Shown here: positions 4,371 to 56,947 of the stretch, in pieces | Position numbering within the stretch: the stretch's first letter is position 1 | How the letters are laid out: the number at the start of each line of letters is the position of its first letter | Assembly: GCF_054482525.1 (NCBI RefSeq) | Contig: NZ_CM137006.1 | Reading direction: 5' to 3' (one strand) | Length of the DNA stretch: 64,000 bases | Notes under the pieces: model-generated | What the model saw: the letters and a program-made list of their open reading frames with translations, nothing else | Database searches by the model: none | Told to the model about the DNA's origin: nothing | Program-made: the position numbers and the translations under genes

Positions 4371-4600
4371 TTTGTTCTTCCCGTGATGCAGACATAATTC
4401 TATGAAAGCATAAATTAAAAACGCACAGAAGCGTAGAATGTTATGTCTGGTTTATAAAATGAACCTTCAATTTTATTATTTATGAAAACAGCATTTCATT
4501 TTTATGGTTTCGTTTATACCGATGGTTTATGTGGAAATTGTCGAATAGAGCAGGTTTGCGCAACGCTGGGATCAGTCTTAAAAAGTAAAAAAATATATTT

Positions 4601-9134: not shown

Positions 9135-10420
9135 AGCGCGGTTGCTCCCTTAATGCCATCTTTCAGCAAGTTGATCAGCCCAATTTTCTTCGCGTGTCCC
9201 ATGATCATTTTGCGTACCGGCTGGTTTGGTTTGCCGTCAATGGTGAACATATCGTTCATGATGTCGGCGACCATGCGCGGATACTGACTAAACAGGCGCG
9301 GGTTTTCCATCAGCGCCGGGACCTTGCGAAAATGCTGCATATCGCGCATAACACAACTTTGTTCCAGCTCACGTTTGTATTGCGCCAGACTGCTGGCGGA
9401 GAAATCCGCGCGTTCTTTGGCGGCAATCACTGTTGTGGCGGCAGCCTGAGCTGATGCAATGGCTAAATCCATGCCGCGAACTGTAAAACCCAAATTCAGG
9501 CAGAAGCCTGCGGCGTCACCAACGATCATCACGCCATCGTTAACCAGCTGCGGCACCATCGCCAGACCGCCTTCCGGTACCATATGCGCGGAGTATTCAA
9601 GCAGTTTGCCGCCGCTAATCAGCGGGCGAATGGCGGGGTGTTGTTTAAAATCTTCCAGCATTTGCGGCACACTTTTTTGCGCATGGGCGATATCACCCAA
9701 TCCACAAACCAGCCCCAACGATACGGAATCATTGTTGGTATAGAGAAATCCGCCGCCCATCAGGCCGTCAGAAGGGGAACCGGCAAACAGCCAGGCGGCA
9801 CCTTCCTCGCCCGTAATATTAAAGCGATCGTTGATCTGTTCTGGTGTGAGGCCAATAACCTCTTTAACACCAACAGCGTAATGATGCGGATCGGAAGCGG
9901 GAACCATTCCCAGCGAGCGGCCAAGCATCGAGTTAACGCCATCAGCCAGAATCACCACATTCGCTTCAAGAACATCATCCCCGGCCTGAACGCCAGTGAC
10001 CTTGTTTCCTTCACGAACCAGCGCATCGACACGAACGCCCGGGATAAACTGCGCGCCAGCCTGTTCGGCTTGTTCCATCAACCACGGGTCCAGACGATTA
10101 CGCAATACGGTATAAGAAGCGTGTTGCGGAACATCTGGTTGCTCGCGGTGAAAATCGAGGGTAACGGCGCTTTCTTCGGTTAAGAAGGAGATTTTCTCGC
10201 GTGTGACCTTGCGTTCTACCGGCGCTGATACTGCAAAGCCTGGAATGATTGCTTCAAGTGTGTGGGCATAAAGACGCCCGCCGGTCATGTTTTTACATCC
10301 GGCACTGTCGCCGCGTTCTATCACCAGGACATCCAGCCCGGCTCGCGCCATGACCAGTGCGGCAACGCTACCGGCAACGCCCGCACCGACCACAATGGCA
10401 TCAAATTTGTCATCCGACAT
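9131..10420 (-). CDS. ydiS: FixC-like flavoprotein (ETF-quinone oxidoreductase-like) YdiS, 429 aa
   Basis: 429-aa ORF with N-terminal FAD-binding GxGxxG (VVGAGVAGS). Confidence 0.88.
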   Translation of the reverse strand: MSDDKFDAIVVGAGVAGSVAALVMARAGLDVLVIERGDSAGCKNMTGGRLYAHTLEAIIPGFAVSAPVERKVTREKISFLTEESAVTLDFHREQPDVPQHASYTVLRNRLDPWLMEQAEQAGAQFIPGVRVDALVREGNKVTGVQAGDDVLEANVVILADGVNSMLGRSLGMVPASDPHHYAVGVKEVIGLTPEQINDRFNITGEEGAAWLFAGSPSDGLMGGGFLYTNNDSVSLGLVCGLGDIAHAQKSVPQMLEDFKQHPAIRPLISGGKLLEYSAHMVPEGGLAMVPQLVNDGVMIVGDAAGFCLNLGFTVRGMDLAIASAQAAATTVIAAKERADFSASSLAQYKRELEQSCVMRDMQHFRKVPALMENPRLFSQYPRMVADIMNDMFTIDGKPNQPVRKMIMGHAKKIGLINLLKDGIKGATAL

Positions 10421-21200: not shown

Positions 21201-21337
21201 CGTGTAATGGCTGCATGAAATAAACAATAAAATATAAATAACATTATCAGCCTGCCGACGGCTTGAAGAGAGTCACAGTATCTTGTGCAACATTATTGGA
21301 AAGCGTGAGGGGCGAGGTAGCGAAGCGGAAAAATGTT

Positions 21338-21407
21338 AAAAAAAAGCCCATCGTGGGAGATGGGCAAAGACTACACACAGCAATTCGTTGTTTCACTCAG
21401 GGGATTT
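21338..21407. repeat. Left attachment-site direct repeat (duplicate of the rprA 3' end and terminator, 70 bp)
   Basis: Identical to 32979-33048: aaaaaaaagcccatcgtgggagatgggcaaagactacacacagcaattcgttgtttcactcaggggattt. Confidence 0.9.
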
Positions 21408-21424
21408 AAGTCATTGATTGATTT

Positions 21425-22054
21425 ATGGGTATGCGGTTTTTCGGCATAAACCAAATTAAGCAAGGCTTGAAAATGGACACACAAATTGCACACATATCGC
21501 ACACAAATAAAAAGGGGTATGTATGGCGCAAGCGTTATGAAAAACGCACGATTGAAATCATCCTACGCACCCGTGATAAATCAATTGCCATAAAAAGAGC
21601 GGCATCAATAACAATTCGCTATATGGAATTAAAATCACTTGACGTTCCATTTAAAGCAATGCTGGAAATGTTAAAAAAGTTTCGTGATGGTCTGATTACG
21701 TCACATGACATTGAGCGCTTAAGGTCGATTGCGATAGCTTCACAGGAAGCTCCACACGCCGCTGTAACCGCTTCGCCTATACAAAGTGTTGGCTATGATG
21801 TCAAAACCGCTCAGAAAGCCGCACAGGGGCATTCCCTTGGCGATGCTCAAAAAGTGTACTTTGGCGCCAACACCGAATGGAAAGAAAAAACCATCAAGGC
21901 TTATTCTGGTTGTATCGACCGCTTTATTTTATGGTGCGCTAATAAAAATATTCATACCGTGGAAGAAATAACGAAAGAGCATGTGATTTCATTTAAATCC
22001 AGCATGGATGAAGAAAAATTAGCCTCCATGACTAAATTTCGCATAATAATATGA
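21425..22054 (+). pseudogene. Tyrosine-integrase-like N-terminal fragment (core-binding/SAM-like region only, catalytic domain missing)
   Basis: 209-aa ORF; the segment KTIKAYSGCIDRFILWCANKNIHTVEEITKEHVISF resembles an integrase core-binding domain; no R..HxxR..Y catalytic region follows; sits next to the att repeat. Confidence 0.4.
21477..21509. repeat. Three tandem ~11-bp repeats (acacacaaatt / gcacacatatc / gcacacaaata), candidate integrase arm-type sites, left end
   Basis: Direct tandem repeats ~70 bp inside the left att repeat; a matching triplet lies ~70 bp inside the right repeat. Confidence 0.5.
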
Positions 22055-22362
22055 TTCGGGTTAGCATAACCAATACTTTTATTAAAGCCTATGTATGCAC
22101 CAATTTCTTTATACTTTAACTTAGTGAAATCTGAAATAATACTCAGTGGCTGCAATACGTTATGTCCATTGTGCGCCCCTTCATTAGCGCAAAATCCTGT
22201 ATTTGCAAACTGACCTTTATCACGCCAGATGAATCTATCAACGCCGCCACATACAGGACATGGTGTATGTTCATTTGGTTTAATATCAATTCCAAAATCA
22301 TTCATATGCACCAATGGATTCTTTTTAATATAATTATTCAAATCAGTAAAGAAATTAGCCAT
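21952..22362 (-). pseudogene. DNA primase zinc-ribbon domain fragment (Toprim and downstream domains absent)
   Basis: Motif HTPCPVCGGVDRFIWRD typical of primase Zn-ribbons; ORF stops soon after; its 3' end overlaps the convergent integrase fragment. Confidence 0.45.
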
Positions 22363-22681
22363 TATATTTGCTCCCGTATCGCCTTGCTGGATGCTTTGCA
22401 AAGAAATCAACGATATCTTGTTTGCGATACCAGATATAACCGTCTAATTCATGATGAATTTCTTGCGGAAATTCTTTAGGGTTAAAGCGTTTGGCGGCAT
22501 AAAACATTGGTTTAGTAACACCAGATAAAGCAATTGCATCATTGCCACACACAAGCCCTGTAAGTTGCACTTTCTGCGATTGTTCTTTTATCTGTGCCGC
22601 GATTAGCCTTTTATTCTCATTAACGTATTTTTCAATCTGTAGCTTACGCATTTTTTCGCGCATGTAATTTATATCGGTCAT
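22355..22681 (-). CDS. AlpA/Xis-like small DNA-binding protein, 108 aa
   Basis: C-terminal region FYAAKRFNPKEFPQE...YIWYRKQDIVDFF resembles the AlpA-family FPK...W..R..DI..W pattern. Confidence 0.45.
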   Translation of the reverse strand: MTDINYMREKMRKLQIEKYVNENKRLIAAQIKEQSQKVQLTGLVCGNDAIALSGVTKPMFYAAKRFNPKEFPQEIHHELDGYIWYRKQDIVDFFAKHPARRYGSKYNG

Positions 22682-22697
22682 TTTAGTATCCTATATA

Positions 22698-24200
22698 TTA
22701 AGTCATTATCTGTGCTGGTGGGGTAATGATATGAATTATCCCTCGATTATTCATAATGAATCTACATCGTTCAAGCCCTGTAATTGCTCGCTTTATATTA
22801 TTTGGCTGCATTTTATACTCAGTTTTTAATGCCTTCGTTAAATCGGATTCATGTACACAGCCATCAGCACTAAATTCCATTAACTGTATTATCATTTCTA
22901 AAACTCGTTCTTGTGCTGGTGCATTTTTCTTTTTTAACTCGCTCATATATGAGTCGTAAGCGAGAGTATTATTACGCGCAGCATTTTGAGTAAAATTAAC
23001 TCCTGCTTCATATGATTCTGCATTTACAGCGTTTTGCATTAATTGCTTATTTTGCTGTTGCGTTGTTAGTGGTTGCCGCTGTTGCGTGTGCATTTGCGCA
23101 TAATCATTTATCGGTGATTGCTGCATGATAAATGGTTCATCATTAGCTTGTTTGCGTTCTATTTTTCCTGCTGCAATTACTGGAGTTGGCCTATCAATAA
23201 ATACCAACGTCTTAGTATTGGCGTTTACCTGATAACCTTTTGCATTTTCTTCGGGATAATCGCATAATTCATTATTAATATCATGTAATTCACAGACGGT
23301 AATTCCGTTATCCGCTGTGCATAAATCAAATTGCATCACTGGTAATTTTGCAGCGCTACGGTTTTTTTCGATAGTGAGTGATACGGATAACCCAAAATCA
23401 TTACCCTGCATTTGCTCTAGTTTAATGACTGTATCAGAGTCATTTTTAAGGGTAATGGCTCCTTTCATACCTTTAGCCGCATCTTTGCCGCCGTGGTGAA
23501 CCATCAAGACAAAAGAATTTGTTTCTACTGCAATTCTTTTCAAAATCGAAATCAGCTTACGCATTGCAATAGCATCATTTTCATCAGGATTTTCCATATC
23601 CAAAATGGTTTTTCCATCAATGCTTTTTTTTGTGTAGTATGCCAAAAATGAAGAAAGCGTATCAAAACAAATGATGCCGCCTTTGTTATTGGTGATTTTA
23701 TTTACATCATTTATTATTCGATTCTGTATTTCTTTATCAAATAAGTTTATTTGTGGTGACAAGATGTGCATTCTGTCATTTTTAACGCCACTATTAAACT
23801 TATTAGACCACGCTGTATTTCGATCTTTGATTTCAACGCCTGTTTCACCATCAAAATAAAAAGCATGGCATTCTTTAGCAACTCGCAAACCAGCCCACGG
23901 TTTACCCTGTGCAACTCTGTTTAAAAGAGATAATGCCGCAAATGATTTGCCTGTGTTGGATTCACCATAAAGGAAGCCGACCTGTTTTCGGTTAAATAGA
24001 TTTTCAATTACAGGGCGTAACCGCTTTTCTGATTGCAATTGAATTTCAGCTAATTCAATTGCACACAATTCATCATTTATACCATCATATTCAGACCACT
24101 CACCGTAGTTGGCGGGTGCGTAATAATCAATCGCGAGAGTGTAATAATAATCAGGAATAGCAGACCAATCAATAAACATTCCTGTGCACATATCATTCAC
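22698..24200 (-). CDS. RecA-like (RepA/AAA_25-type) replication ATPase, 500 aa
   Basis: Walker A GESNTGKS near residue 80; hydrophobic strand plus HHGGKD Walker-B-like region; Q/N-rich linker and C-terminal domain; flanked by AlpA-like genes and iterons. Confidence 0.55.
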   Translation of the reverse strand: MNDMCTGMFIDWSAIPDYYYTLAIDYYAPANYGEWSEYDGINDELCAIELAEIQLQSEKRLRPVIENLFNRKQVGFLYGESNTGKSFAALSLLNRVAQGKPWAGLRVAKECHAFYFDGETGVEIKDRNTAWSNKFNSGVKNDRMHILSPQINLFDKEIQNRIINDVNKITNNKGGIICFDTLSSFLAYYTKKSIDGKTILDMENPDENDAIAMRKLISILKRIAVETNSFVLMVHHGGKDAAKGMKGAITLKNDSDTVIKLEQMQGNDFGLSVSLTIEKNRSAAKLPVMQFDLCTADNGITVCELHDINNELCDYPEENAKGYQVNANTKTLVFIDRPTPVIAAGKIERKQANDEPFIMQQSPINDYAQMHTQQRQPLTTQQQNKQLMQNAVNAESYEAGVNFTQNAARNNTLAYDSYMSELKKKNAPAQERVLEMIIQLMEFSADGCVHESDLTKALKTEYKMQPNNIKRAITGLERCRFIMNNRGIIHIITPPAQIMT

Positions 24201-24247
24201 CGTAATTTGGGTATTTAATTAAGAAAAATTCAATTACTTCTTCTTTT

Positions 24248-24400
24248 TTATATAGATGCTTTGTTTTTTTTGTTTTTATCGCAAGTAACTAAATGCTCTT
24301 TTGGAAATTCTTTAGGGTTAAAACGTTTAGCCATATAAAAAGCGGTTGAGCCAATTTTAGCCAAAAGTTGTGCTTCACGAGGTGTAATTAAGTCGCTCAT
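24248..24400 (-). pseudogene. Second AlpA-like fragment (50 codons), partial duplicate of the 22355-22681 gene
   Basis: Translation MSDLITPREAQLLAKIGSTAFYMAKRFNPKEFPKEH... shares the FY-AKRFNPKEFP motif with the downstream AlpA-like gene; weak RBS; not in the ORF track (<60 aa). Confidence 0.3.
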
Positions 24401-24750
24401 GTAGGGTATCTCTTAGATGTATTCTGAGTGCGGTCATGGTAGGCGAGGGGAGGAATAGCGGCAAGCATTACCGGATATAGTAAGCACTACCAGCTAAAGT
24501 CTAACTAACTGTCAACAGATTGAGGCTAAAACCACTGTATGTAAATTCAATTTTAAAAATTAAAAATCATTCTGGCTTAACTAATTATGCTCAATTTAAA
24601 TTGAATCTGATAATAAAAAGAATCAATAAAATGGATTTAGTGATTTTTAGTTGGACGAAATCGTTCATTTTATGTGCATTGCTCGCTGGTGATAATTCAA
24701 CCAATCCATTCAACCTATTCGAATGGGTGGTGAATTTTTGACCGAATTAA

Positions 24751-24920
24751 ATTCACCTGAATATTCACCGAATGATTCACCTGAATCATTCAGCCCTTCA
24801 TTCACCACGAAACCCAGGCGCGGCGGGGCTTACAGGCCGATTCATTCACCTGAATATTCACCTGAATATTCACCTGAATTATTCAACCAAAAATTCACCT
24901 TCATATTCACTCATTCACCT
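24751..24920. repeat. Iteron array: two clusters of three 12-bp tandem repeats (ATTCACCTGAAT) plus degenerate copies
   Basis: Units at 24751, 24763, 24775 and at 24844, 24856, 24868 with further TTCACC copies; lies upstream of the Rep ATPase operon. Confidence 0.6.
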
Positions 24921-24957
24921 CTCTATAAATAAGCATTGGAATGCTTTTTATAGAGGT
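24921..24957. other. Long near-perfect inverted repeat (ctctataaataagcatt gg aatgctttttatagag), hairpin or operator
   Basis: About 16-bp arms with a 2-nt loop, T-run on one side; lies between the iterons and the ner-like gene. Confidence 0.4.
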
Positions 24958-25236
24958 TGATGAATGAAGGTCGTTCAAGTGAATGAACTGTGAGTTGGGT
25001 AAACCCCTAGGGGTTGGGGGTGTTGTCGATTTGTGGTAAATTCCTTCTGCCAGCGTGAAAAAGGCGCTGGTGGGGATTTGCAGCCCCAAACAAACAAAAC
25101 CATTGGCAAGGAATTGCCGATGCGCGTGCGCACGTCAGTTATGGCGGTCACGGCGAGGGAGTCGAAAGGCTCGCCAGTTTTGTTTGTTTGCTGGTACTGC
25201 AAACCTCGTCGTGATCGTCACCACGGGGATGCATGT

Positions 25237-25488
25237 ATGCAGGAAACAGACTGGCACAAAGCGGATATTCTTGCCTCTTTAAAGAAAAAGAAAATCAGCA
25301 TGGCGGGATTATCCCGTGAACATGGTTTATCAAGTAGCACGTTGCTAAATGCACTTAGTAGAGAATGGCCTAGAGGCGAATTAATTATTGCTAATGCAAT
25401 TGGTGTGTCACCTCAAGAAATATGGCCTTCTAGGTATTTTGAAAAAGATGGCTCTCCAAAAAATCGTGTGATTCGTAAACCTGTTTAA
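25237..25488 (+). CDS. Ner/Nlp (SfsB)-family HTH DNA-binding regulator, ~83 aa
   Basis: MQETDWHKADILASLKKKKISMAGLSREHGLSSSTLLNALSREWPRGELIIANAIGVSPQEIWPSRY closely resembles Ner/Nlp; I prefer the internal ATG at 25237 over the 151-aa ORF start. Confidence 0.6.
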   Translation: MQETDWHKADILASLKKKKISMAGLSREHGLSSSTLLNALSREWPRGELIIANAIGVSPQEIWPSRYFEKDGSPKNRVIRKPV

Positions 25489-25705
25489 ATAAGTCAATGC
25501 GTCTCTGATTAAAAGGGGCGCATTTTTGTTTTTACTGACTTGTTGCAATGTGGGATATGTTGCGCACGTGTGTGCGATAGTTGTTAATTGTTTTTTGTAC
25601 TAGTTAACAAATACGAATTTTCTGAGGGTGCTATTTTGGGTTTTAGCTGCGGCTTCGCCTTGCTGCCCTTCGGGCTGGTGGTGCAAGAAGAATGTTTGAA
25701 AACTT

Positions 25706-25751
25706 CCTTTTCTTTGCTTCACCAGCCCCGTAGGGGCGTGAGCGTAGCGAA
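25706..25751. repeat. 46-bp direct repeat, copy 1 (ccttttctttgcttcaccagccccgtaggggcgtgagcgtagcgaa)
   Basis: Identical to 29912-29957; contains a gcccc-gta-ggggc hairpin; ~100 bp upstream of the 383-aa gene. Confidence 0.85.
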
Positions 25752-25849
25752 CCTAATCACTTTGATTTTGACACATATCGGTTCTATCATTTTCAGGAAA
25801 ATCATCATAGAATTATATAAAACATACGATTTTTAAGGTGAATTTTTAA

Positions 25850-27001
25850 ATGCACGAGAAAGCGCAAACAAAAATAAAAGATACTATTAGAGAAATACTA
25901 ATCACTCCAGCAATCGCTTTTACTGGTCGTGCAGGTCATTTTGATTTTTCATTATATGAAGTTTTAGCAAATGAGCTTAACAAAAGAAAGATAAAGTTTA
26001 AAATTGATAAATTATCATGTTGGATTATTTTTGATGGCGCAAAAAAACATTACTTTCAAGATAAATCAATTACTGACGCACAAGCGATAAATGATTTTGT
26101 GGATACGTTATGTAGTATTTACTGTGAAACACCTATGGATTACTCCATCGATTTTCACTTTAGAAATTTAAAAATCGATATCAACCCGATTGATTATGAG
26201 TTTGTTTCAATTAGAGCGGGTGAGGATATTGGTATTGGTTTGTTCGCTGAAAAAGAAAAGTATGCGATTGCGAGCATTAAAAAGAATGGCTATCTTTCAG
26301 GTGGTTATCCTAGCTCATTTATAAAATCGATTTTGCAAGATTTGAAAATCTTCATTTTTTTGATTAAAAGCATTAATTTGATTAAGACAGGAAAAACCAA
26401 TTTAGCATCCACGTTATTTCAATCGATGTCCGGTCATGCTGACACAATTAAGATTGATTGCGTTAATGTTAAATATCCTTGGATGAATAGCAGTGTCCAT
26501 ATTTCAGAGTCGGTAGGGAAATTTTTACACAACTTTATCTTCAATTATGAATTTGAAGAAGGCTACATTATAGAAAAAATAGATCATTCGCTTCAGCTAA
26601 TGAATGCAATAGTAAAAGATGAGTCAAAAGAAGCCTTGCGTATCAAGGCTGCAATTGATTGGTTGGTGCAATCTGAAATCACTGATGATGAAACCATGTC
26701 TTTTATTCAAATTTGCATGGGGCTTGAATCAATTTTTGGTGATGATGATTATGAGGGTGGCCTAACAAACATACTATCTGATAGATGCGCCTACTTAATA
26801 GGGAATAAAATTAAAGAGAGGAGATTTATAAAGGACACATTTAAAAAAATATATCAAGTTAGGTCAAAGATAGTGCATGGCGTAAGAAATCATTTATCAG
26901 ATGATGAATTATATTTTAGGCATTTAGCATATTCATATTTAGAGCGTTCTATTCTAAAAGAAATTCAAAATTTAGACCTGCAATCCCATCAGGCGACGTG
27001 A
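25850..27001 (+). CDS. Hypothetical protein with C-terminal HEPN-like R-x4-H-G motif, 383 aa
   Basis: AGGTGA RBS 8 nt upstream; C-terminal ...KKIYQVRSKIVHGVRNH matches the R-x4-6-H signature of HEPN RNases; strongly AT-rich. Confidence 0.4.
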   Translation: MHEKAQTKIKDTIREILITPAIAFTGRAGHFDFSLYEVLANELNKRKIKFKIDKLSCWIIFDGAKKHYFQDKSITDAQAINDFVDTLCSIYCETPMDYSIDFHFRNLKIDINPIDYEFVSIRAGEDIGIGLFAEKEKYAIASIKKNGYLSGGYPSSFIKSILQDLKIFIFLIKSINLIKTGKTNLASTLFQSMSGHADTIKIDCVNVKYPWMNSSVHISESVGKFLHNFIFNYEFEEGYIIEKIDHSLQLMNAIVKDESKEALRIKAAIDWLVQSEITDDETMSFIQICMGLESIFGDDDYEGGLTNILSDRCAYLIGNKIKERRFIKDTFKKIYQVRSKIVHGVRNHLSDDELYFRHLAYSYLERSILKEIQNLDLQSHQAT

Positions 27002-27236
27002 AGCTTGTGCGCTTCATTATGGGGCTAGCCGCCATCAGGCAAGGCGATTGCATGTCTTTGCGCTTCGTCGCCTCCTGATGCGTTCTGTGAAGATGTCGAT
27101 CATTTAGTGAGCGCGGCGGATGTTGCTGATGGATAGTGTGGATGCAACTGAACCATACCGCGAAAAGTGGCAGGATTGCGCCGGAATCGTACCGCTAGCA
27201 GGTGTTGAGTGTAAGAAGTAGTGATTGGGTGAAATG

Positions 27237-27275
27237 AAGATAGAAGGCCGCATAGAGGCATACAACTAGCCTTAT
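27237..27275 (-). terminator. Hairpin downstream of the lipoprotein gene (candidate terminator)
   Basis: ccgcata...tatgcgg stem followed, on the minus strand, by a T-rich tract. Confidence 0.35.
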
Positions 27276-27288
27276 GCGGTTGGCTGGT

Positions 27289-27732
27289 TCAGCACTGGTA
27301 AAAGTTGGCGAGGTGTGGAATATGGCTGGTGGTGGTTTCGAAAGCCTTGAGGCGTCCATTTTTATCTTTTTTCAAGTAGAGCATTTTTAGTGCTGGTGGA
27401 AATACTGAATCCATAATTCCATAAACTCCCACATTTTCGTTTTCTTCTTTAAGCATTCCCCAATATTGATAACCATTTAATGCGCTATCATCAATGCCCG
27501 TTCCAACGCGCTTAATGTGGGCAAGATATCGGCCTTTTATCGTAAAGCTAAATGATTCATCACGTTCATTTGTGCAAGTGTAAAATCCATCATCGCTTTC
27601 ATTTATAACTTCAGATGCTTCACGATTTAATGAGTACTTGTCTAAGTTGTTTATGATGTCACTTCGCTGTGCGCATCCAGTCAAATTTAGAATGGTAAAA
27701 ATTAGTACAGAAGATGCAAGATATTTGTTCAT
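27289..27732 (-). CDS. Predicted lipoprotein, ~147 aa
   Basis: N-terminus MNKYLASSVLIFTILNLTGC carries a signal peptide with lipobox LTGC; internal ATG at 27732 preferred. Confidence 0.55.
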   Translation of the reverse strand: MNKYLASSVLIFTILNLTGCAQRSDIINNLDKYSLNREASEVINESDDGFYTCTNERDESFSFTIKGRYLAHIKRVGTGIDDSALNGYQYWGMLKEENENVGVYGIMDSVFPPALKMLYLKKDKNGRLKAFETTTSHIPHLANFYQC

Positions 27733-27818
27733 TTTGATTATCCATATGAAAAGCAAGGTACTTAGATTAAATTACCCTGCTTAAGCAGTAATTAGCGGTT
27801 CCGTTAATAGAGGGTAGA

Positions 27819-28178
27819 TTATTTGTTAATTTGTTTTTTAGTGTGTGAGATAAAATTTCTAAGTAAATCTTTTTCAATTACAATTTCACATTTTAGGTTT
27901 TGGCTATCGACCGCATCAATTCTATCAAACCAAAACATTAATTCCTGGCTTGCATCGCATTTACGTTTGAATTTAATTGCCCTGCCGAATTTTTCACTTA
28001 AAGAATCATCATCACATAAAAAATAAATTTTATTATTAATGGTGATTTGAATTAAATATGTCTTCCTCGTTAGGTAATCTAACCTTTCGTTAGCTTTCAG
28101 TAAGTTAGCTTCAGCTTGTTTGATGCGTATAAGAGCATCCTCTTTGCTTAAAGGGGATGTATTGACAGACTTGATCAT
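27819..28178 (-). CDS. Hypothetical protein, 119 aa, upstream partner of the lipoprotein
   Basis: AAGGA RBS 8 nt upstream of the ATG; co-oriented with the lipoprotein gene, 86-bp gap. Confidence 0.5.
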   Translation of the reverse strand: MIKSVNTSPLSKEDALIRIKQAEANLLKANERLDYLTRKTYLIQITINNKIYFLCDDDSLSEKFGRAIKFKRKCDASQELMFWFDRIDAVDSQNLKCEIVIEKDLLRNFISHTKKQINK

Positions 28179-28287
28179 AATTTAATCCTTTGGTTAAGAT
28201 TCATCAAAAATATGCCATAAATAGCCTTGAAGGTTGTGTGGAATACATATTATGATAGCTTCATCTAATCAGCAAGGGGAATAATAG

Positions 28288-28443
28288 ATGCCTTCTAAAC
28301 GTGTTATATGCTCACTTGATGAGCAAGAGTTAGATATTCTCGAAAAATATAAATTACATTATAAAAATATGCATGGCGTAAAATTAAACAGAACGGCAAT
28401 TATCAAAATGTTGATTAGTCGTCTATCAAAAGAAATTCAATAA
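28288..28443 (+). CDS. Ribbon-helix-helix (Arc/CopG-like) small DNA-binding protein, 51 aa
   Basis: MPSKRVICSLDEQELDILEKYKLHYKNMHGVKLNRTAIIKMLISRLSKEIQ shows a beta-strand/helix/helix pattern; GGGGA RBS; divergent from the 27819-28178 operon; below ORF-track length cutoff. Confidence 0.45.
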   Translation: MPSKRVICSLDEQELDILEKYKLHYKNMHGVKLNRTAIIKMLISRLSKEIQ

Positions 28444-28495
28444 TAATTCTAATTACCAATTAATTTAAACTTCACATAATTAAAGAGGCAACTCT

Positions 28496-28810
28496 ATGCA
28501 CACTCTTTTTTCTAAATTTAAAAACAGGAAAATTAAAATGTATCAACCACGTTATAAAAGCAGAATGATTGACGATAATGAATATAATCAGGTGCTTCAA
28601 TCGAGAATGCAAAATCTTTTAAATCAATATAATAATGAGGTTTCAAACTTAACCCGCATTGGTGTTACAAATTTGGGTTTCGGCCGATGGGATAATGGAG
28701 AGAGCAAAATCAATAACCACGTTAATAAAGTAAGTGAGACTTTGGAAAAGATGCAATCTACGCAAGCCTTGATTGATGCTCTTGCAAATGAAATTACACA
28801 AACTAATTAA
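28496..28810 (+). CDS. Hypothetical protein, 104 aa
   Basis: AAGAGG RBS 8 nt upstream; no recognisable motif. Confidence 0.45.
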   Translation: MHTLFSKFKNRKIKMYQPRYKSRMIDDNEYNQVLQSRMQNLLNQYNNEVSNLTRIGVTNLGFGRWDNGESKINNHVNKVSETLEKMQSTQALIDALANEITQTN

Positions 28811-28894
28811 TCGAATGGGGGATGCTTTAAATGGTAATCGCAATCATGGTTGTAATGTTTTGGGCTTTCCTGATTCTTAAAGAGGAAATGAAAT

Positions 28895-29179
28895 ATGGTT
28901 AAATTTGGAGTGTTTTACCATCATGCATGGGGTGATGGTAAAAAGGAAATCCCGCCACCTGATTTAAATTACATCCGAACCGATCCACATAAAAATAATG
29001 AAATTGCTTTAGATGTTTTTGATTCAAGAATGGACGCACAAAAACGCGCTGATTTACTAAATTCACGCATGGCAAAAAATCAAACTGGTCAGCATTATGT
29101 TGCGCCAACAACGCAAGAAACCAAAACGGCTCAAAAGCGCTTTAAGTTTCCTTGTACTAGCATTTATGGGTGGAAATGA
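28895..29179 (+). CDS. Hypothetical protein, 94 aa (paralog family A)
   Basis: AGAGGA RBS; N-terminus MVKFGVFYHHAWGDG is similar to the next gene's N-terminus. Confidence 0.45.
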   Translation: MVKFGVFYHHAWGDGKKEIPPPDLNYIRTDPHKNNEIALDVFDSRMDAQKRADLLNSRMAKNQTGQHYVAPTTQETKTAQKRFKFPCTSIYGWK

Positions 29180-29181
29180 AA

Positions 29182-29556
29182 ATGAGTAAACAATTCGGTG
29201 TTTTCTTTTGGCGAAAAGGTGACGCTATTACCGATATCCCGTCAGATAAAAATGTTGCAAATCGCGGAGTAAAGCCTAAGCGCATTTTTTCAGATTATAT
29301 TGATGGAATGCGATATAAAGATAAAATGAATGCAACAATTCCAGCGGCGCAAAAAGGTAAATATGAATATGTATTAGCGGAAATTGTTGAACCAGACCCG
29401 AACAATACAAAGGTGTTGTTTAAATCTGGAAATTTAACAGAAGCATTAAGGGCGAAGCGACAAACAACCGAACAAATCAACCGAAATAAAATTGATGCAA
29501 TGATTAAAGAAGCCGCACACGATTACCTTTACACTATTACAGGAATGGAAAAATGA
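29182..29556 (+). CDS. Hypothetical protein, ~124 aa (paralog family A)
   Basis: N-terminus MSKQFGVFFWRKGDA parallels the upstream gene; GGTGGA RBS; start at 29182 preferred over 29170. Confidence 0.45.
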   Translation: MSKQFGVFFWRKGDAITDIPSDKNVANRGVKPKRIFSDYIDGMRYKDKMNATIPAAQKGKYEYVLAEIVEPDPNNTKVLFKSGNLTEALRAKRQTTEQINRNKIDAMIKEAAHDYLYTITGMEK

Positions 29557-29852
29557 TTATTGACGAGCGATTTATTAAATGGTCAATGGTGCTGGTGGAG
29601 GCCGGAAAGCCATCACCCAGCCTCGCGGGGCTTTATAAAGGAAACACTAAAGGATTAATCTTTTATAAAACACGTGAATTGGCATCAAATGCAGCCACTA
29701 AACGGAATGAGCAATTAGCAGGAACTAAATCAACCAGCCGATTTAAAATCATTAAATTGCATGACGCAGAAGCACAACAGAAACATGATTTTCAGTTAAA
29801 ACAGGAACGCCAGCGCCGCGATGCACGCCATATGCGCCGATTTGGTTTCTAA
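29553..29852 (+). CDS. Hypothetical basic protein, 99 aa
   Basis: 4-bp ATGA overlap with the upstream gene suggests translational coupling; Lys/Arg-rich C-terminus. Confidence 0.4.
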   Translation: MIIDERFIKWSMVLVEAGKPSPSLAGLYKGNTKGLIFYKTRELASNAATKRNEQLAGTKSTSRFKIIKLHDAEAQQKHDFQLKQERQRRDARHMRRFGF

Positions 29853-29911
29853 ATATAACTCAATAACTCAACCAATGGTGATGTTAAAGAATAAGGTGGC
29901 CTTAAATTTCA

Positions 29912-29957
29912 CCTTTTCTTTGCTTCACCAGCCCCGTAGGGGCGTGAGCGTAGCGAA
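29912..29957. repeat. 46-bp direct repeat, copy 2
   Basis: Identical to 25706-25751; 37 bp upstream of the tape-measure-like gene. Confidence 0.85.
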
Positions 29958-29993
29958 ATAAGTAACATTAATATCAAATCAGAGGTAAATAAA

Positions 29994-31982
29994 ATGGCAG
30001 GTGAAAATGCTCAATTGGGCTTTTCCGTCGATACATCGGAAGTGGAAACAGCATCAAAAAGGCTTAATGAATTAGCTAAATCAGCGCAAGGGGCGGCTGA
30101 TTCGGCTGGCAAATTATCAGATTCATTTGAGGAAAGTATGAAGGGTGTTAATTCATCAATTACTTCCAATCATCAGGCTATGCGCGAATTAACGGTAATG
30201 ATGCACGAAGCAATGTCTGGTAATTGGTCGCGCTTGCGTGGTTCTGCAATGATTATGGGCGGCGCATTGGGATTTGGTGGATTAACTAGCGGTGCGGTAG
30301 TTGGTGGAATTACGCTTGTTTCGGAAGGCATTGAATCGCTAATTGAAGGAATGCGAGAAGCTCAAAAAGCAGAAACTGAATTAAATAATTCTGCTGTAAT
30401 TACAGCAGATGTAAGCCTTTTAAATAGTGATTATGTTGATTCACTTACTATTGGTTATGAGAAATTAGGCTATTCAGCAACACAAGCAAAAGGCATGATT
30501 GCAGCGTTAAGTAATGCGGGTATGTTTGGTGATGAATTTAGTGTTGCAGGTAAACAAATTGCCGCACTATCTAAAGCGTTAGGCGGTAATTCAGACGAAC
30601 AAAAAAAATTAGCTGGTCAATTTGGTGGCTTGTATTCTGACCCGCTAGGACACGTTAACGAATTTTTCCAAGTAACAAACGGATGGATTACCAAAACCGA
30701 ACAAAACCGAATTAATGCGGCTGAACAATCGCATAATTCAGCACAAGCTGAAATGGCTATGCAAGAAGCGCTATTAGATGTTTATAAGCGTCAAACCGAT
30801 ATGCTACAGCTTAAAGCCTATTTGGAAACTAACGCCGCTACATATTCAGCCTTTCAGACGCGCGAACAATTCGGCAGCGCATGGGGTAAGGGCGAAAAAG
30901 AAAAGGCAGACGCATTTATCAAGCAATATGACGAGCGCCAGCAATCATTTAATCAGGGCGTTGAAAAGCTAAAAGGAAGCATTCACGAAACAGGACGCCA
31001 GATAAGGGAAAATGTAGAAGAATTTAATAAAGGAATGCATCCCCATAAAGTGCATACACACCACGGATTAACAGCAATTGAGAAAGCAGCTAAACAATTG
31101 GTGACCTACCAAACCCAAATTAAACAGGCTGGTTTGCAATTTGACCAGCAAATTAATTCAATTGGTGATTCAGTAAATAATGCGTGGAGTAATAAATTAT
31201 ACTCTTATTCAATGTCTTCTGACCAGAATGATTTTGCAAACCGAATTGAACAAATCAATGAACAATTCGACCGTATGCGCGAAAATGTAGACCGTTTGGC
31301 GCTGCAACATCATAAATCAATTGGTTCAAAAGAATATGTTGAAATGTTCCAAAAAATCGAATTAGGGCGCAAAAACGTATTGGCTGAAAACGTTGCTGGA
31401 TTTAATGAAATGGAGTCATTGCAGCATTCAGCGCTGGCGGGAATGGATGAGGGATGGATTAAATACCAGAAGCAGGTTAATGATGTTGCAAGCCAATCAG
31501 AGAAAGTTTTTGATACGGCTGTTGAGGGAATGACAAATTCATTAACTGATTTCTTTACAACTGGTGAGGCTGGTTGGACTAATTTTGTAAAATCAATCGC
31601 AACAATCACTGAAAAATACATGGTTCAAGATTGGATTGTTGAGCCGCTAGCAGGATTAGTAAAAGGGGGGATTAGCTCGCTATTTTCATCAAATCCATTG
31701 AGTTCAACGGCTAACACTTTTGCCGTTCCCGATATTCCAAAATTGGGCGCAACTCATTTAGGAGGCGGTCTAGGTTCGACCGCACCAGTTATCAATATCA
31801 CCATTAATGACAATGGCAACAAAGGCGGCGTTGATAGCAATGTTAGCGGCACAACAGGGCAAGTACAAAAAATGGGGGCGGCGCTAGATAAATTCCTGCA
31901 AAACTATATCAAAGAGCAAAACGTAAAATCCAACCGTCAGGGCGGGTTAAACAAAACAATGGGGAACTGGTCGACAAGATAA
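29994..31982 (+). CDS. Phage tail tape-measure protein homolog (lambda gpH-like), 662 aa, orphan
   Basis: Glycine-rich hydrophobic segment MIMGGALGFGGLTSGAVVGGITLV near the N-terminus, long helical middle, C-terminal FDTAVEGMTNSLTDFFTTGEAGWTNFVKSI and ...VINITINDNG matching, from memory, the lambda H C-terminal region; AGAGGT RBS. Confidence 0.6.
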   Translation: MAGENAQLGFSVDTSEVETASKRLNELAKSAQGAADSAGKLSDSFEESMKGVNSSITSNHQAMRELTVMMHEAMSGNWSRLRGSAMIMGGALGFGGLTSGAVVGGITLVSEGIESLIEGMREAQKAETELNNSAVITADVSLLNSDYVDSLTIGYEKLGYSATQAKGMIAALSNAGMFGDEFSVAGKQIAALSKALGGNSDEQKKLAGQFGGLYSDPLGHVNEFFQVTNGWITKTEQNRINAAEQSHNSAQAEMAMQEALLDVYKRQTDMLQLKAYLETNAATYSAFQTREQFGSAWGKGEKEKADAFIKQYDERQQSFNQGVEKLKGSIHETGRQIRENVEEFNKGMHPHKVHTHHGLTAIEKAAKQLVTYQTQIKQAGLQFDQQINSIGDSVNNAWSNKLYSYSMSSDQNDFANRIEQINEQFDRMRENVDRLALQHHKSIGSKEYVEMFQKIELGRKNVLAENVAGFNEMESLQHSALAGMDEGWIKYQKQVNDVASQSEKVFDTAVEGMTNSLTDFFTTGEAGWTNFVKSIATITEKYMVQDWIVEPLAGLVKGGISSLFSSNPLSSTANTFAVPDIPKLGATHLGGGLGSTAPVINITINDNGNKGGVDSNVSGTTGQVQKMGAALDKFLQNYIKEQNVKSNRQGGLNKTMGNWSTR

Positions 31983-32043
31983 TATTATGTTGCTTAGTAA
32001 GTCTAAACTTTACGCCCTAATTAGGGCGTTTTATTTAAAAAAG

Positions 32044-32661
32044 TTAATTTGCTGTATTTTCTCTCATCTTTCTAAGTTCTGGCAATACTTTCTTATAGAA
32101 TTTCGTAGTGGAATCAGCGCAGTAGTTTTGCAGATACTTATAGTTTTCTTCAAATTTAGGGAGATCTTTAGCTACCGTCAATTGCTTTGGTAAAGTTCCG
32201 GTAGCATCATCGGTTATATCAAATGTTATTGAATTATGTTTTCGATCTTCATTAACTTTTTTTAAAGTGGCAACAATAGGGCTTTTATCCATAGAACCAT
32301 CTATTAGTTGGCGAACTTGAAACTTCCTTGGGATTATAAAATTAATTACTGACGGAGGTTCACTATTTAATGTTATATTCCAAGTTATTGGCATAGCATC
32401 ACATAAACCTTCAGATATTATTTCACCATCAATTGAACCATCAGAATTGGCGATAAATTGTATTATAACAAGTGGTTGATCTTTATTTAAGCCAAGATCT
32501 CCACTATTTATTATATATTCAGCGTCTGTCGACCATTTGCCTGTTAGAAATTCTTTTTGATAAAGTGCTTCATTTATTTCACCTCTATATGGTAAATATA
32601 GACCTATAGCACCAATTGCAACACCTAATACAGTGCATATTGTTGTTATTCGTCCACTCAT
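32044..32661 (-). CDS. Membrane-anchored hypothetical protein, 205 aa
   Basis: N-terminal hydrophobic helix ITTICTVLGVAIGAIGLYLPY; AT-rich; at the island edge. Confidence 0.45.
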   Translation of the reverse strand: MSGRITTICTVLGVAIGAIGLYLPYRGEINEALYQKEFLTGKWSTDAEYIINSGDLGLNKDQPLVIIQFIANSDGSIDGEIISEGLCDAMPITWNITLNSEPPSVINFIIPRKFQVRQLIDGSMDKSPIVATLKKVNEDRKHNSITFDITDDATGTLPKQLTVAKDLPKFEENYKYLQNYCADSTTKFYKKVLPELRKMRENTAN

Positions 32662-32875
32662 ATCACACTCGTTATCTTATCCTTGTTGTAGTTAAGCATT
32701 TTATTTTATTTTTTTATTGTGAAAATGGCTAGTTTTAGTTGGGTCTTGCGCTGAATCTAACGAGTGCTTACCCCGTGAAGTGATTTATGATTAAAGTTCG
32801 TTTTGTTTTTGGTTAAAAAATGAACATGTGAGTGCTTTGGAAAATTTCTGTAACACTCACCTGATTTACGCTGGT

Positions 32876-32909
32876 AGCACACAAATGGTACACAAACGGC
32901 ACACAGGTA
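32876..32909. repeat. Three tandem ~11-bp repeats (agcacacaaatgg / tacacaaacgg / cacacaggtaa), candidate integrase arm-type sites, right end
   Basis: Mirrors the left-end triplet; same orientation; ~70 bp inside the right att repeat. Confidence 0.5.
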
Positions 32910-32978
32910 ATCGCATACCTTTAATGACCTAATTTCTTCAAGCCCCTGCATTGCTGCGTTTGTCGTGATTTTCGGCAT

Positions 32979-33048
32979 AAAAAAAAGCCCATCGTGGGAG
33001 ATGGGCAAAGACTACACACAGCAATTCGTTGTTTCACTCAGGGGATTT
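32979..33048. repeat. Right attachment-site direct repeat (3' 70 nt of intact rprA)
   Basis: Identical to 21338-21407. Confidence 0.9.
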
Positions 33049-33084
33049 CCATGCTTATAAATCAATATGTTGATTTATAACCGT
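32979..33084 (-). ncRNA. rprA: Small regulatory RNA RprA (activator of rpoS translation)
   Basis: Minus-strand sequence ACGGTTATAAATCAACATATTGATTTATAAGCATGGAAATCCCCTGAGTGAAACAACGAATTGCTGTGTGTAGTCTTTGCCCATCTCCCACGATGGGCTTTTTTTT matches RprA from memory, including the intrinsic terminator; lies between ydiK and ydiL. Confidence 0.85.
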
Positions 33085-38522: not shown

Positions 38523-38747
38523 TCCTGACTTAATGCCGCAATTTCGCCAAATCGACCTGGATTAACCTCCGTCCAGGTTCGATGACCTTCTTAATACTGC
38601 TTATCTACCCGCCTGATATTGTTCAAAAATAATACTAATCGCAGTTTGTGTTAAAACGGCGGGTTAGCTTTATGAGATTATTCTTATCGCCCCTTCAAGA
38701 GCTAAGCCACTGAGAGTGCCGGAGATAAGCGCCGGATGGGGTAGAAA

Positions 38748-38788
38748 CCCTTAAGCCTGTGTCGCACAGACTTAAGGGTTTTCTTATT
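38748..38788 (+). terminator. Rho-independent terminator-like hairpin in the ydiH-sufA intergenic region
   Basis: cccttaagcctgtg...cacagacttaaggg stem followed by ttttcttattt. Confidence 0.5.
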
Positions 38789-56452: not shown

Positions 56453-56758
56453 TCAGGCGAGTTTTGCCTCATTGATTTGACTCAGTGGCTCATTGACATC
56501 GAAAACTTTGGCGACAACTTCCTCAACGCCGAGATTTTTCAGTCGGGCAGTATGTTTTTCCAGATAGGCAAGGGCGCTTTTTTCATCAGTGAAAAGGTAG
56601 ATCCCACCGGCTTCGTGGTTCTTTTCACTTTCTGTCCATACCTTCCACAGAAAACCAGGTTCCTGATTAATCGACTCAGCAAGTGGTTTAAGCTGCTCAG
56701 CCATTGCGTCGCCAAATGGGCCATTAAAAGCAAAATGAAGTTGTAACAAAGTTGCCAT
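56453..56758 (-). CDS. ydhR: Putative monooxygenase-like protein YdhR, 101 aa
   Basis: 101-aa ORF; synteny. Confidence 0.85.
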
Positions 56759-56866
56759 AGCGATTCTCCTTCTGATAACGCATACGAAGACAGTGTAAAT
56801 CTTTTAACGTATTGGATACAGAGAAGAAACAGAGGGAAAAAAGGAGAAGACCAGATTAAGAAAATC

Positions 56867-56943: not shown

Positions 56944-56947
56944 AGGA

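What the first reader, a model, noticed from the sequence alone, without database searches (positions are those of the whole stretch)
24751..24920. Array of 12-bp iterons (ATTCACCTGAAT) in two phased clusters: candidate origin or operator
Exact 12-bp units occur head-to-tail three times at 24751-24786 (middle copy degenerate) and three times at 24844-24879, with further TTCACC half-sites on both strands nearby. The array sits directly upstream of the AlpA'/Rep operon and next to a Ner-like regulator, which is the classic iteron-origin-next-to-rep arrangement. It is not a CRISPR array (no spacers, units too short). The repeats also create spurious ORFs with repetitive HSPEYSPEYSPE peptides.
Basis: seen in the sequence. 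Interest (0 to 1): 0.55.

Follow-up and report, generated by a model that had tools for sequence, protein, structure and literature searches.

The report
Iteron origin of a satellite-like island
The short repeats are real and are most likely the docking sites where a small mobile island's own replication helicase binds to start copying the island: an ordinary kind of replication origin, here in a rare, partly decayed and apparently unnamed E. coli island.

Summary
Observation confirmed. ATTCACCTGAAT occurs exactly five times, only at 24751-24879. The core TTCACC occurs 10 times exactly, plus 7 one-mismatch copies, in 24696-24984 at 12-13 bp spacing.

The array lies in an ~11.7 kb island inserted in rprA of E. 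coli, between a leftward small-gene/helicase/primase operon and a rightward C4-RNA/Ner-like operon.

The key evidence is comparative. In 13 related loci, plus two that repeat L003, the repeat sequence falls into three classes: TTCACC, CCACCAG and GGTTGATT. These classes match three classes of the last ~115 residues of the Rep helicase, which are predicted to form a winged helix.

The Ner-like protein, small protein, 108-aa protein, primase and integrase do not track the repeat class. Rep's C-terminal domain and the repeats are 1.7 kb apart, separated by a conserved helicase core.

Every class keeps the same layout: a conserved 23-nt box, an AT-rich tract, iteron cluster 1, a GC-rich spacer, cluster 2, an AT-rich palindrome, then inverted iterons.

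Best reading: an iteron replication origin bound by Rep's C-terminal domain. The layout and TTCACC core recall the P4 origin, but the proteins are unrelated.

The window copy has lost most of its integrase and primase, so it is probably a relic. Verdict: new member of a known kind, modest interest.

The parts
24530..24552 (+). Conserved 23-nt box AAC(C/T)ACTGTATGT(A/T)AATTCAATT at the outer edge of the origin region. Its binder is unknown.
   Evidence: Present in all three iteron classes. Used as a search pattern, it retrieved 5 metagenome loci, all of this family.
24520..24680 (.). AT-rich tract (GC 20-25%), a candidate DNA-unwinding region.
   Evidence: Composition profile. An AT-rich stretch sits at the same place in every related locus.
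24696..24806 (+). Iteron cluster 1: seven direct sites (two TTCAAC, four TTCACC, one TTCAGC) at 12-13 bp spacing from 24752 on, plus one inverted TTCACC at 24729-24734.
   Evidence: A 56-nt unit at 24751-24806 is 82% identical to 24844-24899 (family D1).
24807..24843 (.). GC-rich spacer between the two clusters (acgaaacccaggcgcggcggggcttacaggccgattc).
   Evidence: A GC-rich spacer with a similar CCCAGxCGGCG...GGCC pattern separates the clusters in classes B and C too.
24845..24919 (+). Iteron cluster 2: seven direct sites, comprising three exact head-to-tail ATTCACCTGAAT units, then TTCAAC, TTCACC, TTCACT and TTCACC.
   Evidence: Copy number varies in relatives: FREC5, L005 and L024 have two exact units instead of three.
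24921..24955 (.). AT-rich palindrome or hairpin (15 paired positions) between the direct and inverted iterons. It is a candidate melting or extrusion site.
   Evidence: DNA fold -10.4 kcal/mol, z = -4.5. A hairpin of different sequence sits at the same position in L005, L014, class B and class C, with z from -4.1 to -6.2.
24959..24984 (-). Two inverted, degenerate iterons (TTCATC, TTCACT) on the far side of the palindrome.
   Evidence: and inverted-repeat pairs I8 and I13. Classes B and C have inverted copies at the same place.
22698..24200 (-). Rep: a RepA-like (AAA_25) P-loop helicase and putative initiator. Walker A is GESNTGKS. RefSeq annotates the start at 24191.
   Evidence: Pfam AAA_25, E = 2.3e-21. 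PHROG 'replicative helicase-primase'. About 30% identity to replicative helicases of E. coli siphoviruses. One homologue is named 'helicase RepA family protein' by NCBI.
22701..23045 (-). Rep C-terminal ~115 residues: a predicted winged-helix domain and the proposed iteron reader.
24248..24400 (-). First gene of the leftward operon. It is 68 aa in relatives but frameshifted to 50 aa here. An excisionase/AlpA-like motif is visible by eye only.
   Evidence: No Pfam, PHROG or NCBIfam hit.
21952..22410 (-). Remnant of the island primase. Only the N-terminal Zn-ribbon part is left, against 330 aa in intact relatives.
   Evidence: Zn_Ribbon_Prim.
25137..25225 (+). C4-type antisense RNA gene on the rightward transcript. 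It bounds the origin region on the right but is not part of the iteron array.
   Evidence: Rfam RF01695, 65.8 bits against a gathering score of 45. P4's CI RNA hits the same family.
25237..25488 (+). Ner/SfsB-like HTH_35 regulator. It is conserved across iteron classes, so it is not the iteron binder.
   Evidence: PHROG 769, E = 1.8e-30. NCBIfam SfsB, 97.5 bits, below the cut-off. By eye from the sequences, at most about 7 of 83 residues differ between loci of different iteron class.

Best explanation
The array is the iteron part of the vegetative replication origin of an ~11.7 kb integrated element in rprA, probably a phage satellite.

Shown by comparison: each TTCACC-type unit is a binding site for the C-terminal winged-helix domain of the element's own RepA-like helicase, Rep (22698-24200, minus strand).

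Inferred:
- Many Rep subunits bind the ~14 direct sites in two clusters and the inverted sites beyond the AT-rich palindrome.
- This assembles the hexameric helicase on the DNA.
- The duplex opens either at the AT-rich palindrome (24921-24955), which is flanked by opposed iterons, or in the 160-bp AT-rich tract (24520-24680).
- The island's separate Zn-ribbon/Toprim primase then primes, and host polymerase extends.
- No DnaA box is present, so initiation would be DnaA-independent, as in P4.
- Because the sites lie upstream of both divergent promoters, Rep binding may also modulate transcription.

In this window the integrase and primase genes are largely deleted and the first operon gene is frameshifted. 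This copy of the origin is therefore probably a non-autonomous relic that could fire only with functions supplied in trans.
For: 1. The repeats are real and far above chance.

2. There is three-way covariation across the 13 loci tabulated.
- TTCACC iterons occur with C-terminal class A in the window, L002, L005/L006 and L014. L014's Rep is only 57% identical overall but 56% in the C-terminal domain.
- CCACCAG(T) iterons occur with class B in L003/L004, L007, L010, L011 and L012.
- GGTTGATT iterons occur with class C in L015/L016.
- Motif counts are clean: 6-9 TTCACC against 0-1 in the other classes.
- Class C worked as a prediction. The third C-terminal type was seen first, and its locus then showed a third repeat.

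3. The specificity maps to the C-terminal domain. The window Rep and P0009 (L003) are 93.4% identical over residues 51-340 but 27.8% identical over residues 386-500.

4. At the DNA level there are two divergent patches, 22700-23000 and 24200-25000. They are separated by about 1.1 kb that is 77-92% identical. A single hitch-hiking tract therefore does not explain the link.

5. Other candidate binders do not covary.
- The Ner-like protein differs at no more than about 7 of 83 residues across classes.
- The 68-aa small protein, the 108-aa protein and the primase are conserved across classes.
- L003 has a different small protein but class B iterons.
- The 401-aa integrase occurs with classes A, B and C.

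6. The C-terminal domain is predicted to be a winged helix. Its best structural matches are the winged-helix domains that follow the ATPase in Orc1/Cdc6/MCM initiators.

7. The architecture is typical of an origin and is preserved in all classes although the sequences differ: an AT-rich tract, two iteron clusters, and an AT-rich palindrome with inverted iterons beyond it.

8. Within class A the iteron segment is better conserved (83-97%) than the neighbouring AT-rich DNA (70-74%).

9. Rep has an AAA_25 / replicative-helicase core.
Against: - There is no experiment. Neither binding nor replication has been shown for any member of this family.
- The sample is small and its loci are related. There are perhaps three or four independent associations, not thirteen.
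- The origin lies upstream of the rep operon, not 3' of rep as in PICIs and SaPIs (PMC6092414).
- The 12-13 bp unit is shorter than typical plasmid iterons.
- No viral-contig copy was found, so there is no evidence that the element replicates or is packaged.
- The window copy lacks a complete primase and integrase.
- The full-length Rep model was too poor to confirm a hexameric helicase fold.
- Sites upstream of two promoters would also fit a purely regulatory role.
Confidence: 0.75

Rival explanations
1. The repeats are Rep-binding operator sites only. Rep, or Rep together with another factor, binds them to autoregulate the leftward operon or to control the rightward C4/Ner promoter, and replication starts elsewhere or not at all.
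For: The array lies between two divergent transcription units. The nearest inverted sites (24959-24984) sit about 65-90 bp upstream of the inferred start of the C4/Ner transcript, downstream of the extended -10 TGgTAAATT at 25034-25042. Covariation with Rep's C-terminal domain fits any Rep-binding role. Initiators of iteron plasmids commonly autoregulate (general knowledge).
Against: Seventeen sites spread over 290 bp, with none overlapping a recognisable -35/-10, is far more than an operator needs. The adjacent AT-rich tract and the position-conserved AT-rich palindrome are origin features. The binder is a helicase with a Walker A motif, not a repressor. No other iteron cluster exists in the island.
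Confidence: 0.12
2. The repeats are binding sites for another island protein: the Ner-like regulator, the small AlpA-like protein, the 108-aa protein, or integrase arm-type sites.
For: These are DNA-binding or putatively DNA-binding proteins encoded next to the array.
Against: All of them are conserved across loci whose repeats are completely different, and one of them is swapped without any change of repeat. The Ner-like protein differs at no more than about 7 of 83 residues between classes. L003 has a different small protein but the same iterons as L007. The same 401-aa integrase type occurs with classes A, B and C. The array is also about 3 kb from the att end.
Confidence: 0.04
3. The repeats are a packaging (pac) or partition (centromere-like) site, not an origin.
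For: Arrays of short direct repeats also mark plasmid centromeres and some pac sites (general knowledge). The island carries a tape-measure-like gene, which suggests it travels in phage particles.
Against: No ParA/ParB or small-terminase gene was recognised in the island. The covariation is with the helicase's C-terminal domain.
Confidence: 0.04
4. The repeats are part of a real protein-coding gene, the 69-aa ORF at 24723-24932 with SPEY repeats.
For: The ORF is open in the window, FREC5 and L005. The copy-number change in FREC5 is 12 bp, which keeps the frame.
Against: The three genomes that keep the ORF open are about 90% identical in DNA. In L005 a 1-bp indel changes the C-terminus. In L014 the frame starts and ends elsewhere. 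Classes B and C have no corresponding protein. RefSeq annotates no gene there. The repeat unit itself contains no stop codon in that frame, which explains the open frame.
Confidence: 0.01

Closest known systems
Satellite phage P4 ori and crr: type-1 repeats TGTTCACC bound by the C-terminal winged-helix domain of the alpha primase-helicase
   Same: The placement matches. P4's ori type-1 repeats (9310-9413) lie in the divergent intergenic region just upstream of the leftward vis(ORF88)-cI-epsilon-alpha operon, opposite the rightward sid operon. The repeat core is shared: P4 has TGTTCACC, with variants such as TATTCACC in crr, and this array has (A/T)ATTCACC. P4's crr is two duplicated blocks of repeats, and here there are two clusters 82% alike. 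In both, the initiator is a helicase with a C-terminal winged-helix reader (PMC2777425). Neither region has a DnaA box. Both elements carry an RNA of Rfam family C4; P4's CI RNA scores 74.9 bits.
   Different: The proteins are unrelated in sequence. BLASTP of Rep against alpha finds nothing, and hhalign of the C-terminal domains gives probability 0.1%. Rep is an AAA_25 RecA-type helicase with a separate primase gene, whereas alpha is a fused DnaG-type primase and SF3 helicase. There is one origin region here, not ori plus a distant crr. The C4-type RNA is on the strand opposite to rep. None of the island ORFs scanned matched a P4 sid, psu or delta family, though not every ORF was scanned.
Replication origins of PICIs and SaPIs (e.g. 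EcCICFT073, SaPIbov1)
   Same: [quoted passage not shown] 2 legend). Rep and origin come in several allelic specificity types.
   Different: In PICIs the origin lies immediately 3' of pri-rep, and Gram-negative PICIs are transcribed in one direction. Here it lies 5' of the operon between divergent units. The Rep family is different, and there is no verified AlpA.
PLE (Vibrio cholerae satellite) RepA and its iteron origin
   Same: A satellite-encoded initiator binds semi-palindromic direct repeats in a non-coding region, and those repeats are required for replication (PMC7145576). The 12-mer here, ATTCA-CC-TGAAT, is also semi-palindromic.
   Different: PLE RepA is a RepA_N-family initiator with no helicase domain and has an N-terminal DNA-binding domain. 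It shows no sequence relation to this Rep.
Orc1/Cdc6-type initiators (AAA+ ATPase followed by a winged helix)
   Different: This is a match of fold class only, at 7-14% identity. The ATPase here is Pfam AAA_25, a different family from the AAA+ ATPase of Orc1/Cdc6.

Membership tests
Iteron-type replication origin (generic class) | Multiple copies of a short motif, mostly in direct orientation and at regular spacing | tested here: met
   17 sites, 14 of them direct, at 12-13 bp spacing.
Iteron-type replication origin (generic class) | An adjacent AT-rich region that can unwind | tested here: met
   24520-24680 has GC 20-25%. An AT-rich palindrome at 24921-24955 is flanked by opposed iterons.
Iteron-type replication origin (generic class) | A cognate initiator encoded nearby whose DNA-binding domain matches the iterons | tested here: met
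   By comparison only: three iteron classes match three Rep C-terminal winged-helix classes, and no other protein covaries.
Iteron-type replication origin (generic class) | Initiator binding to the iterons, and origin activity in vivo | not testable with these tools
   Needs EMSA or footprinting and a replication assay.
P4-like satellite (ori/crr with alpha protein) | An alpha-type primase/SF3 helicase/winged-helix replicase | tested here: not met
   No BLASTP similarity to P4 alpha. Pfam gives AAA_25 only. hhalign of the C-terminal domains gives probability 0.1%.
P4-like satellite (ori/crr with alpha protein) | Type-1 octamer TGTTCACC repeats in ori plus a separate crr | tested here: inconclusive
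   The core TTCACC is shared, and TATTCACC occurs in both. However, the full unit differs, and there is a single region with two clusters and no distant crr.
P4-like satellite (ori/crr with alpha protein) | sid, psu and delta capsid-size and late-control genes | tested here: not met
   PHROGs returned no match to a sid, psu or delta family for the ten island ORFs scanned, and RefSeq lists the remaining island ORFs as hypothetical proteins. No search with the P4 proteins themselves was run.
Gram-negative PICI | int-alpA-pri-rep transcribed in one direction, with the origin immediately 3' of rep | tested here: not met
   The array is 5' of the operon, between divergent units. The small gene has no AlpA profile hit. 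Definition taken from PMC6092414.
Gram-negative PICI | [quoted passage not shown] | tested here: met
   Direct iterons up to 24919, the AT-rich palindrome at 24921-24955, and inverted iterons at 24959-24984.
CRISPR array | Repeats of about 24-48 bp separated by unique spacers of similar length | tested here: not met
   The units are 12 bp and abut head to tail with no spacers.

The most novel reading that the evidence does not exclude
The island family could be an undescribed family of enterobacterial phage satellites. Its gene set is int, a GIY-YIG-like protein, primase, a 108-aa protein, an AAA_25 helicase with a swappable winged-helix domain, a small HTH-like protein, the iteron origin, a C4/CI-type RNA, a Ner-like regulator, a variable slot holding a HEPN protein, and a lambda-type tape-measure C-terminal protein. 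On this reading it has independently arrived at P4-like control logic: an antisense-RNA immunity element, an iteron origin in the divergent control region, and even the same TTCACC core. It would use unrelated replication proteins and would hijack siphovirus tails through its own tape-measure protein. The shared TTCACC/TATTCACC core could then allow cross-talk with co-resident P4-like satellites.
Probability: 0.3. Interest if true: 0.6.

Novelty: new member of a known kind. Interest (0 to 1): 0.35.

Why it matters
The array gives a concrete, testable origin and initiator pair for a rare island family with no functional annotation. The family was found in 5 of 5426 complete E. coli genomes, and also in Salmonella, Enterobacter and metagenomes.

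The three natural specificity swaps are a ready-made system for studying how a helicase-linked winged helix reads DNA, and how incompatibility types arise in satellites. Each swap pairs a C-terminal domain with its own iterons across a conserved helicase core.

For genome annotation, it explains an 840-bp 'empty' intergenic region and flags the overlapping ORFs as spurious.

In itself, an iteron origin next to rep is textbook biology.

Tried and rejected
- Sequence searches of the array region found no match in phages or plasmids.
- Rep peptide patterns found nothing in viral contigs.
- A scan of one genome per species with the 19-nt conserved box gave only 7 hits in unrelated phyla, about what chance predicts (my own estimate is ~4), so the family is absent from species representatives.
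- Rep has no solved relative by sequence, either as a single sequence or as a profile.
- The full-length Rep AlphaFold model was too poor to use (mean pLDDT 46.5), so the helicase fold was not checked by structure.
- Homology between the Rep C-terminal domain and the P4 alpha origin-binding domain was tested and not found. PDB entry 1KA8 was not among the top structural matches.
- An exhaustive search with the class A C-terminal domain found only one other full-length protein, P0023.
- DnaA boxes and IHF sites are not conserved in the region.
- I considered a LexA box for the conserved CTGT-N8-TCAA box but did not accept it, because the right half lacks the CAG.
- The 'AlpA' identity of the small gene and the 108-aa protein has no Pfam hit.
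- No island protein gave a credible PADLOC match; the only hit was a weak Cas7g match at E = 0.0023.
- Literature searches for a description of this island family, or of an rprA-integrated satellite, found nothing relevant. One search for the P4 octamer returned only unrelated primer sequences.
- The simple promoter scan found no convincing promoter inside the array.

Full report
**Observation**

ATTCACCTGAAT occurs exactly at 24751, 24775, 24844, 24856 and 24868, with a degenerate copy at 24763.
- Allowing one mismatch, these five are the only matches in the 64 kb window. Shuffles expect 0.34, and none of 100 reaches five.
- Tandem Repeats Finder reports two period-12 arrays.
- The core TTCACC occurs 10 times in 24690-24990. 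Shuffles give a mean of 0.14, and no other 301-bp window has more than 4.
- A site map lists 17 sites in 24696-24984. Ten are exact and seven have one mismatch. Fourteen are direct at 12-13 bp spacing, and three are inverted.
- The two clusters are a duplication: a 56-nt unit is 82% identical between 24751 and 24844.

**Context**

The window is E. coli chromosome, 100% identical to strain PCN033 over the region.
- Two RprA hits, at 21336-21456 and 32977-33084, bracket an ~11.7 kb insertion.
- The leftward genes are a small ORF (24248-24400), an AAA_25 helicase here called Rep (22698-24200), a 108-aa protein, and a primase Zn-ribbon fragment that overlaps an integrase N-terminal fragment.
- The rightward genes are a C4-family antisense RNA (25137-25225, 65.8 bits), a Ner/SfsB-like HTH protein, a HEPN protein, several unknowns, and a tape-measure C-terminal protein.
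- An intact relative in E. coli FREC5 has a 401-aa integrase, a GIY-YIG-like protein, a 330-aa primase and a 68-aa small protein.
- The window copy has therefore suffered a deletion and a frameshift and is probably defective.
- The region occurs in only 5 of 5426 complete E. coli genomes. It was found in no phage or plasmid record.

**Comparative test**

Rep homologues were found at 57-98% identity in E. coli, Enterobacter, Salmonella and metagenomes. Their loci were fetched.
- All have the same gene order and an 750-1100 bp non-coding region at the same place.
- The repeats in that region fall into three classes:
  - Class A, TTCACC: the window, L002, L005/L006 and L014.
  - Class B, CCACCAG(T): L003/L004, L007, L010 and L012, with a CGCCAGT-enriched variant in L011.
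  - Class C, GGTTGATT/AATCAACC: L015/L016.
- A metagenome scan with the conserved 23-nt box added five family loci. One is a new class A variant (L024), one is identical to the window (L025), two repeat L003, and one is L006 again.

**What covaries**

Only the C-terminal ~115 residues of Rep follow the repeat class.
- The window Rep and P0009 (L003) are 93.4% identical over residues 51-340 but 27.8% over residues 386-500.
- P0009's C-terminus is 56-77% identical to the other class B proteins.
- P0023 (L014) has a divergent core, but its C-terminal domain is 56% identical to the window's, and its locus has TTCACC iterons.
- A third C-terminal type (P0036) was noticed in the protein list. Its locus then turned out to carry a third repeat, so this worked as a prediction.
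- The other proteins do not track the repeat class:
  - The Ner-like protein, the 68-aa small protein, the 108-aa protein and the primase are conserved across classes.
  - L003 has a different small protein but class B iterons.
  - The same 401-aa integrase type occurs with all three classes.
- In DNA, the window and L003 show two divergent patches, 22700-23000 and 24200-25000. About 1.1 kb of 77-92% identity lies between them. The association is therefore not one recombination tract carrying neighbours along.
- Within class A the iteron segment is more conserved (83-97%) than the AT-rich DNA beside it (70-74%).

**The reader domain**

An AlphaFold2 model of the last 112 residues is confident over the core (pLDDT above 90).
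- It shows three helices followed by a beta-hairpin.
- Foldseek matches are all winged helices.
- No sequence homology to the P4 alpha origin-binding domain was detectable.

**Architecture**

All classes share the same order of elements, although the sequences differ:
- a conserved 23-nt box (24530-24552);
- an AT-rich tract (24520-24680, GC 20-25%);
- iteron cluster 1, a GC-rich spacer, then cluster 2;
- an AT-rich palindrome (24921-24955; -10.4 kcal/mol, z = -4.5);
- inverted iterons.

The palindrome exists at the same position with different sequence in four other loci, with z from -4.1 to -6.2. No DnaA box or IHF site is conserved. The overlapping ORFs are not conserved beyond near-identical relatives and are not annotated.

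**Mechanism**

Shown by comparison: the repeats are the partners of the Rep C-terminal domain.

Inferred:
- Rep binds the array through its winged helix and assembles as a helicase.
- It opens either the palindrome between opposed iterons or the AT-rich tract.
- The island primase then primes synthesis.
- The sites may also affect the two divergent promoters.
- I infer the rightward promoter from an extended -10, TGgTAAATT, at 25034-25042, which is conserved in the relatives.

I put 0.75 on 'origin bound by Rep', 0.12 on 'Rep operator only', and small values on the other readings.

**Comparison with known systems**

P4 is the closest in layout.
- Its type-1 repeats TGTTCACC lie in the divergent region upstream of the vis-to-alpha operon. 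Its crr is a duplicated block of the same repeats, including the variant TATTCACC.
- Its alpha protein carries a C-terminal winged helix (PMC2777425).
- Its CI RNA hits the same Rfam family, C4.
- The replication proteins are unrelated, and no P4 sid, psu or delta family was matched among the island ORFs scanned. This is not a P4-family member.

PICI origins also have two iteron sets around an AT-rich segment. They lie 3' of pri-rep in a unidirectional layout (PMC6092414), which differs from the arrangement here.

PLE RepA binds semi-palindromic iterons but belongs to a different protein family (PMC7145576).

**Verdict**

This is a new member of a known kind, an iteron origin with its cognate initiator. 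It sits in a rare island family for which I found no description. In this window it is probably a relic.

Noticed in passing
window 21336-33084: An ~11.7 kb island is inserted in the sRNA gene rprA. A partial RprA copy lies at 21336-21456 and a full copy at 32977-33084. The window copy has a deletion that leaves only an integrase N-terminal fragment (21425-22054) overlapping a primase Zn-ribbon fragment (21952-22410). Intact relatives (FREC5, OU349849) have a 401-aa integrase, a GIY-YIG-like protein and a 330-aa primase.
   Followed up: partly
window 25087-25100 and 25137-25225: This is a C4-family antisense RNA, the same Rfam family as P4's CI RNA and P1's c4. Its loop GUUUUGUUUGUUUG (25177-25190) is 14/14 complementary to CAAACAAACAAAAC in the leader of the same transcript, 76 nt upstream. 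That suggests P4/P1-style RNA immunity acting on the Ner-like operon. The RNA and leader are nearly invariant across iteron classes A and B.
   Followed up: partly
window 24530-24552: The 23-nt box AAC(C/T)ACTGTATGT(A/T)AATTCAATT is conserved in all iteron classes at the edge of the AT-rich tract. Its left half looks like a LexA half-site (TACTGTAT), but the right half lacks CAG. The binder is unknown, and a conserved regulator or a helper-phage or host factor are candidates.
   Followed up: partly
window 24921-24955 (and the same position in L005, L007, L014, L015): An AT-rich palindrome of 15-18 bp is kept at the same place in every class but with a different sequence. It is flanked by the last direct iteron and the first inverted iteron. 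Its role (melting site, cruciform, or priming signal) is unexplained.
   Followed up: partly
window 25850-27001: A 383-aa HEPN-domain protein (RefSeq name; an R-x4-H motif is visible in QVRSKIVHG) sits in a slot that varies between islands. L007 lacks it and L012 has other genes there. This looks like a defence-gene hotspot, as in other satellites. PADLOC and PHROGs gave no hit.
   Followed up: partly
window 29994-31982: Every island of the family encodes a 660-715 aa protein with a lambda-type tape-measure C-terminal domain (Tape_meas_lam_C; PHROG tail length tape measure). This is unusual cargo for a small integrated element and hints at hijacking of siphovirus tails.
   Followed up: no
window 24248-24400: The first gene of the leftward operon is frameshifted in an A-run, giving 50 aa against 68 aa in relatives. 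It shares the motif FY(M/A)AKRFNPKEFP with the 108-aa protein (22355-22681). Neither protein has any Pfam hit.
   Followed up: yes
Rep N-terminus, window 24050-24200 (minus strand); P0023, P0024, P0025: The Rep N-terminus carries one or two copies of a short (M)xIDWxAKP motif whose number varies between homologues. Its function is unknown, and it may be a protein-interaction peptide.
   Followed up: no
L013 (P4) 4366-4373 against window 24762-24769 and others: One annotated P4 crr type-1 repeat is TATTCACC, the same 8-mer as in the window's ...AATATTCACC... units. This raises the untested possibility of cross-recognition between P4 alpha and this island's origin.
   Followed up: partly
L011 (Salmonella), origin region: Within class B, L011 has several iterons changed from C(C/A)ACCAG to CGCCAG at corresponding positions. 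Its Rep (P0034) has a variant C-terminal end (...TIMVDKGVIEMDNKTISLPKKQAPIMSV). This may be fine-scale co-evolution of the reader domain and its sites.
   Followed up: no
window 38689-38749 and 56742-57024: Ordinary chromosomal RNA genes lie outside the island: rydB, two tRNA-Val(GAC) genes, and an Rfam 'HPnc0260' antisense hit overlapping the tRNA region.
   Followed up: no
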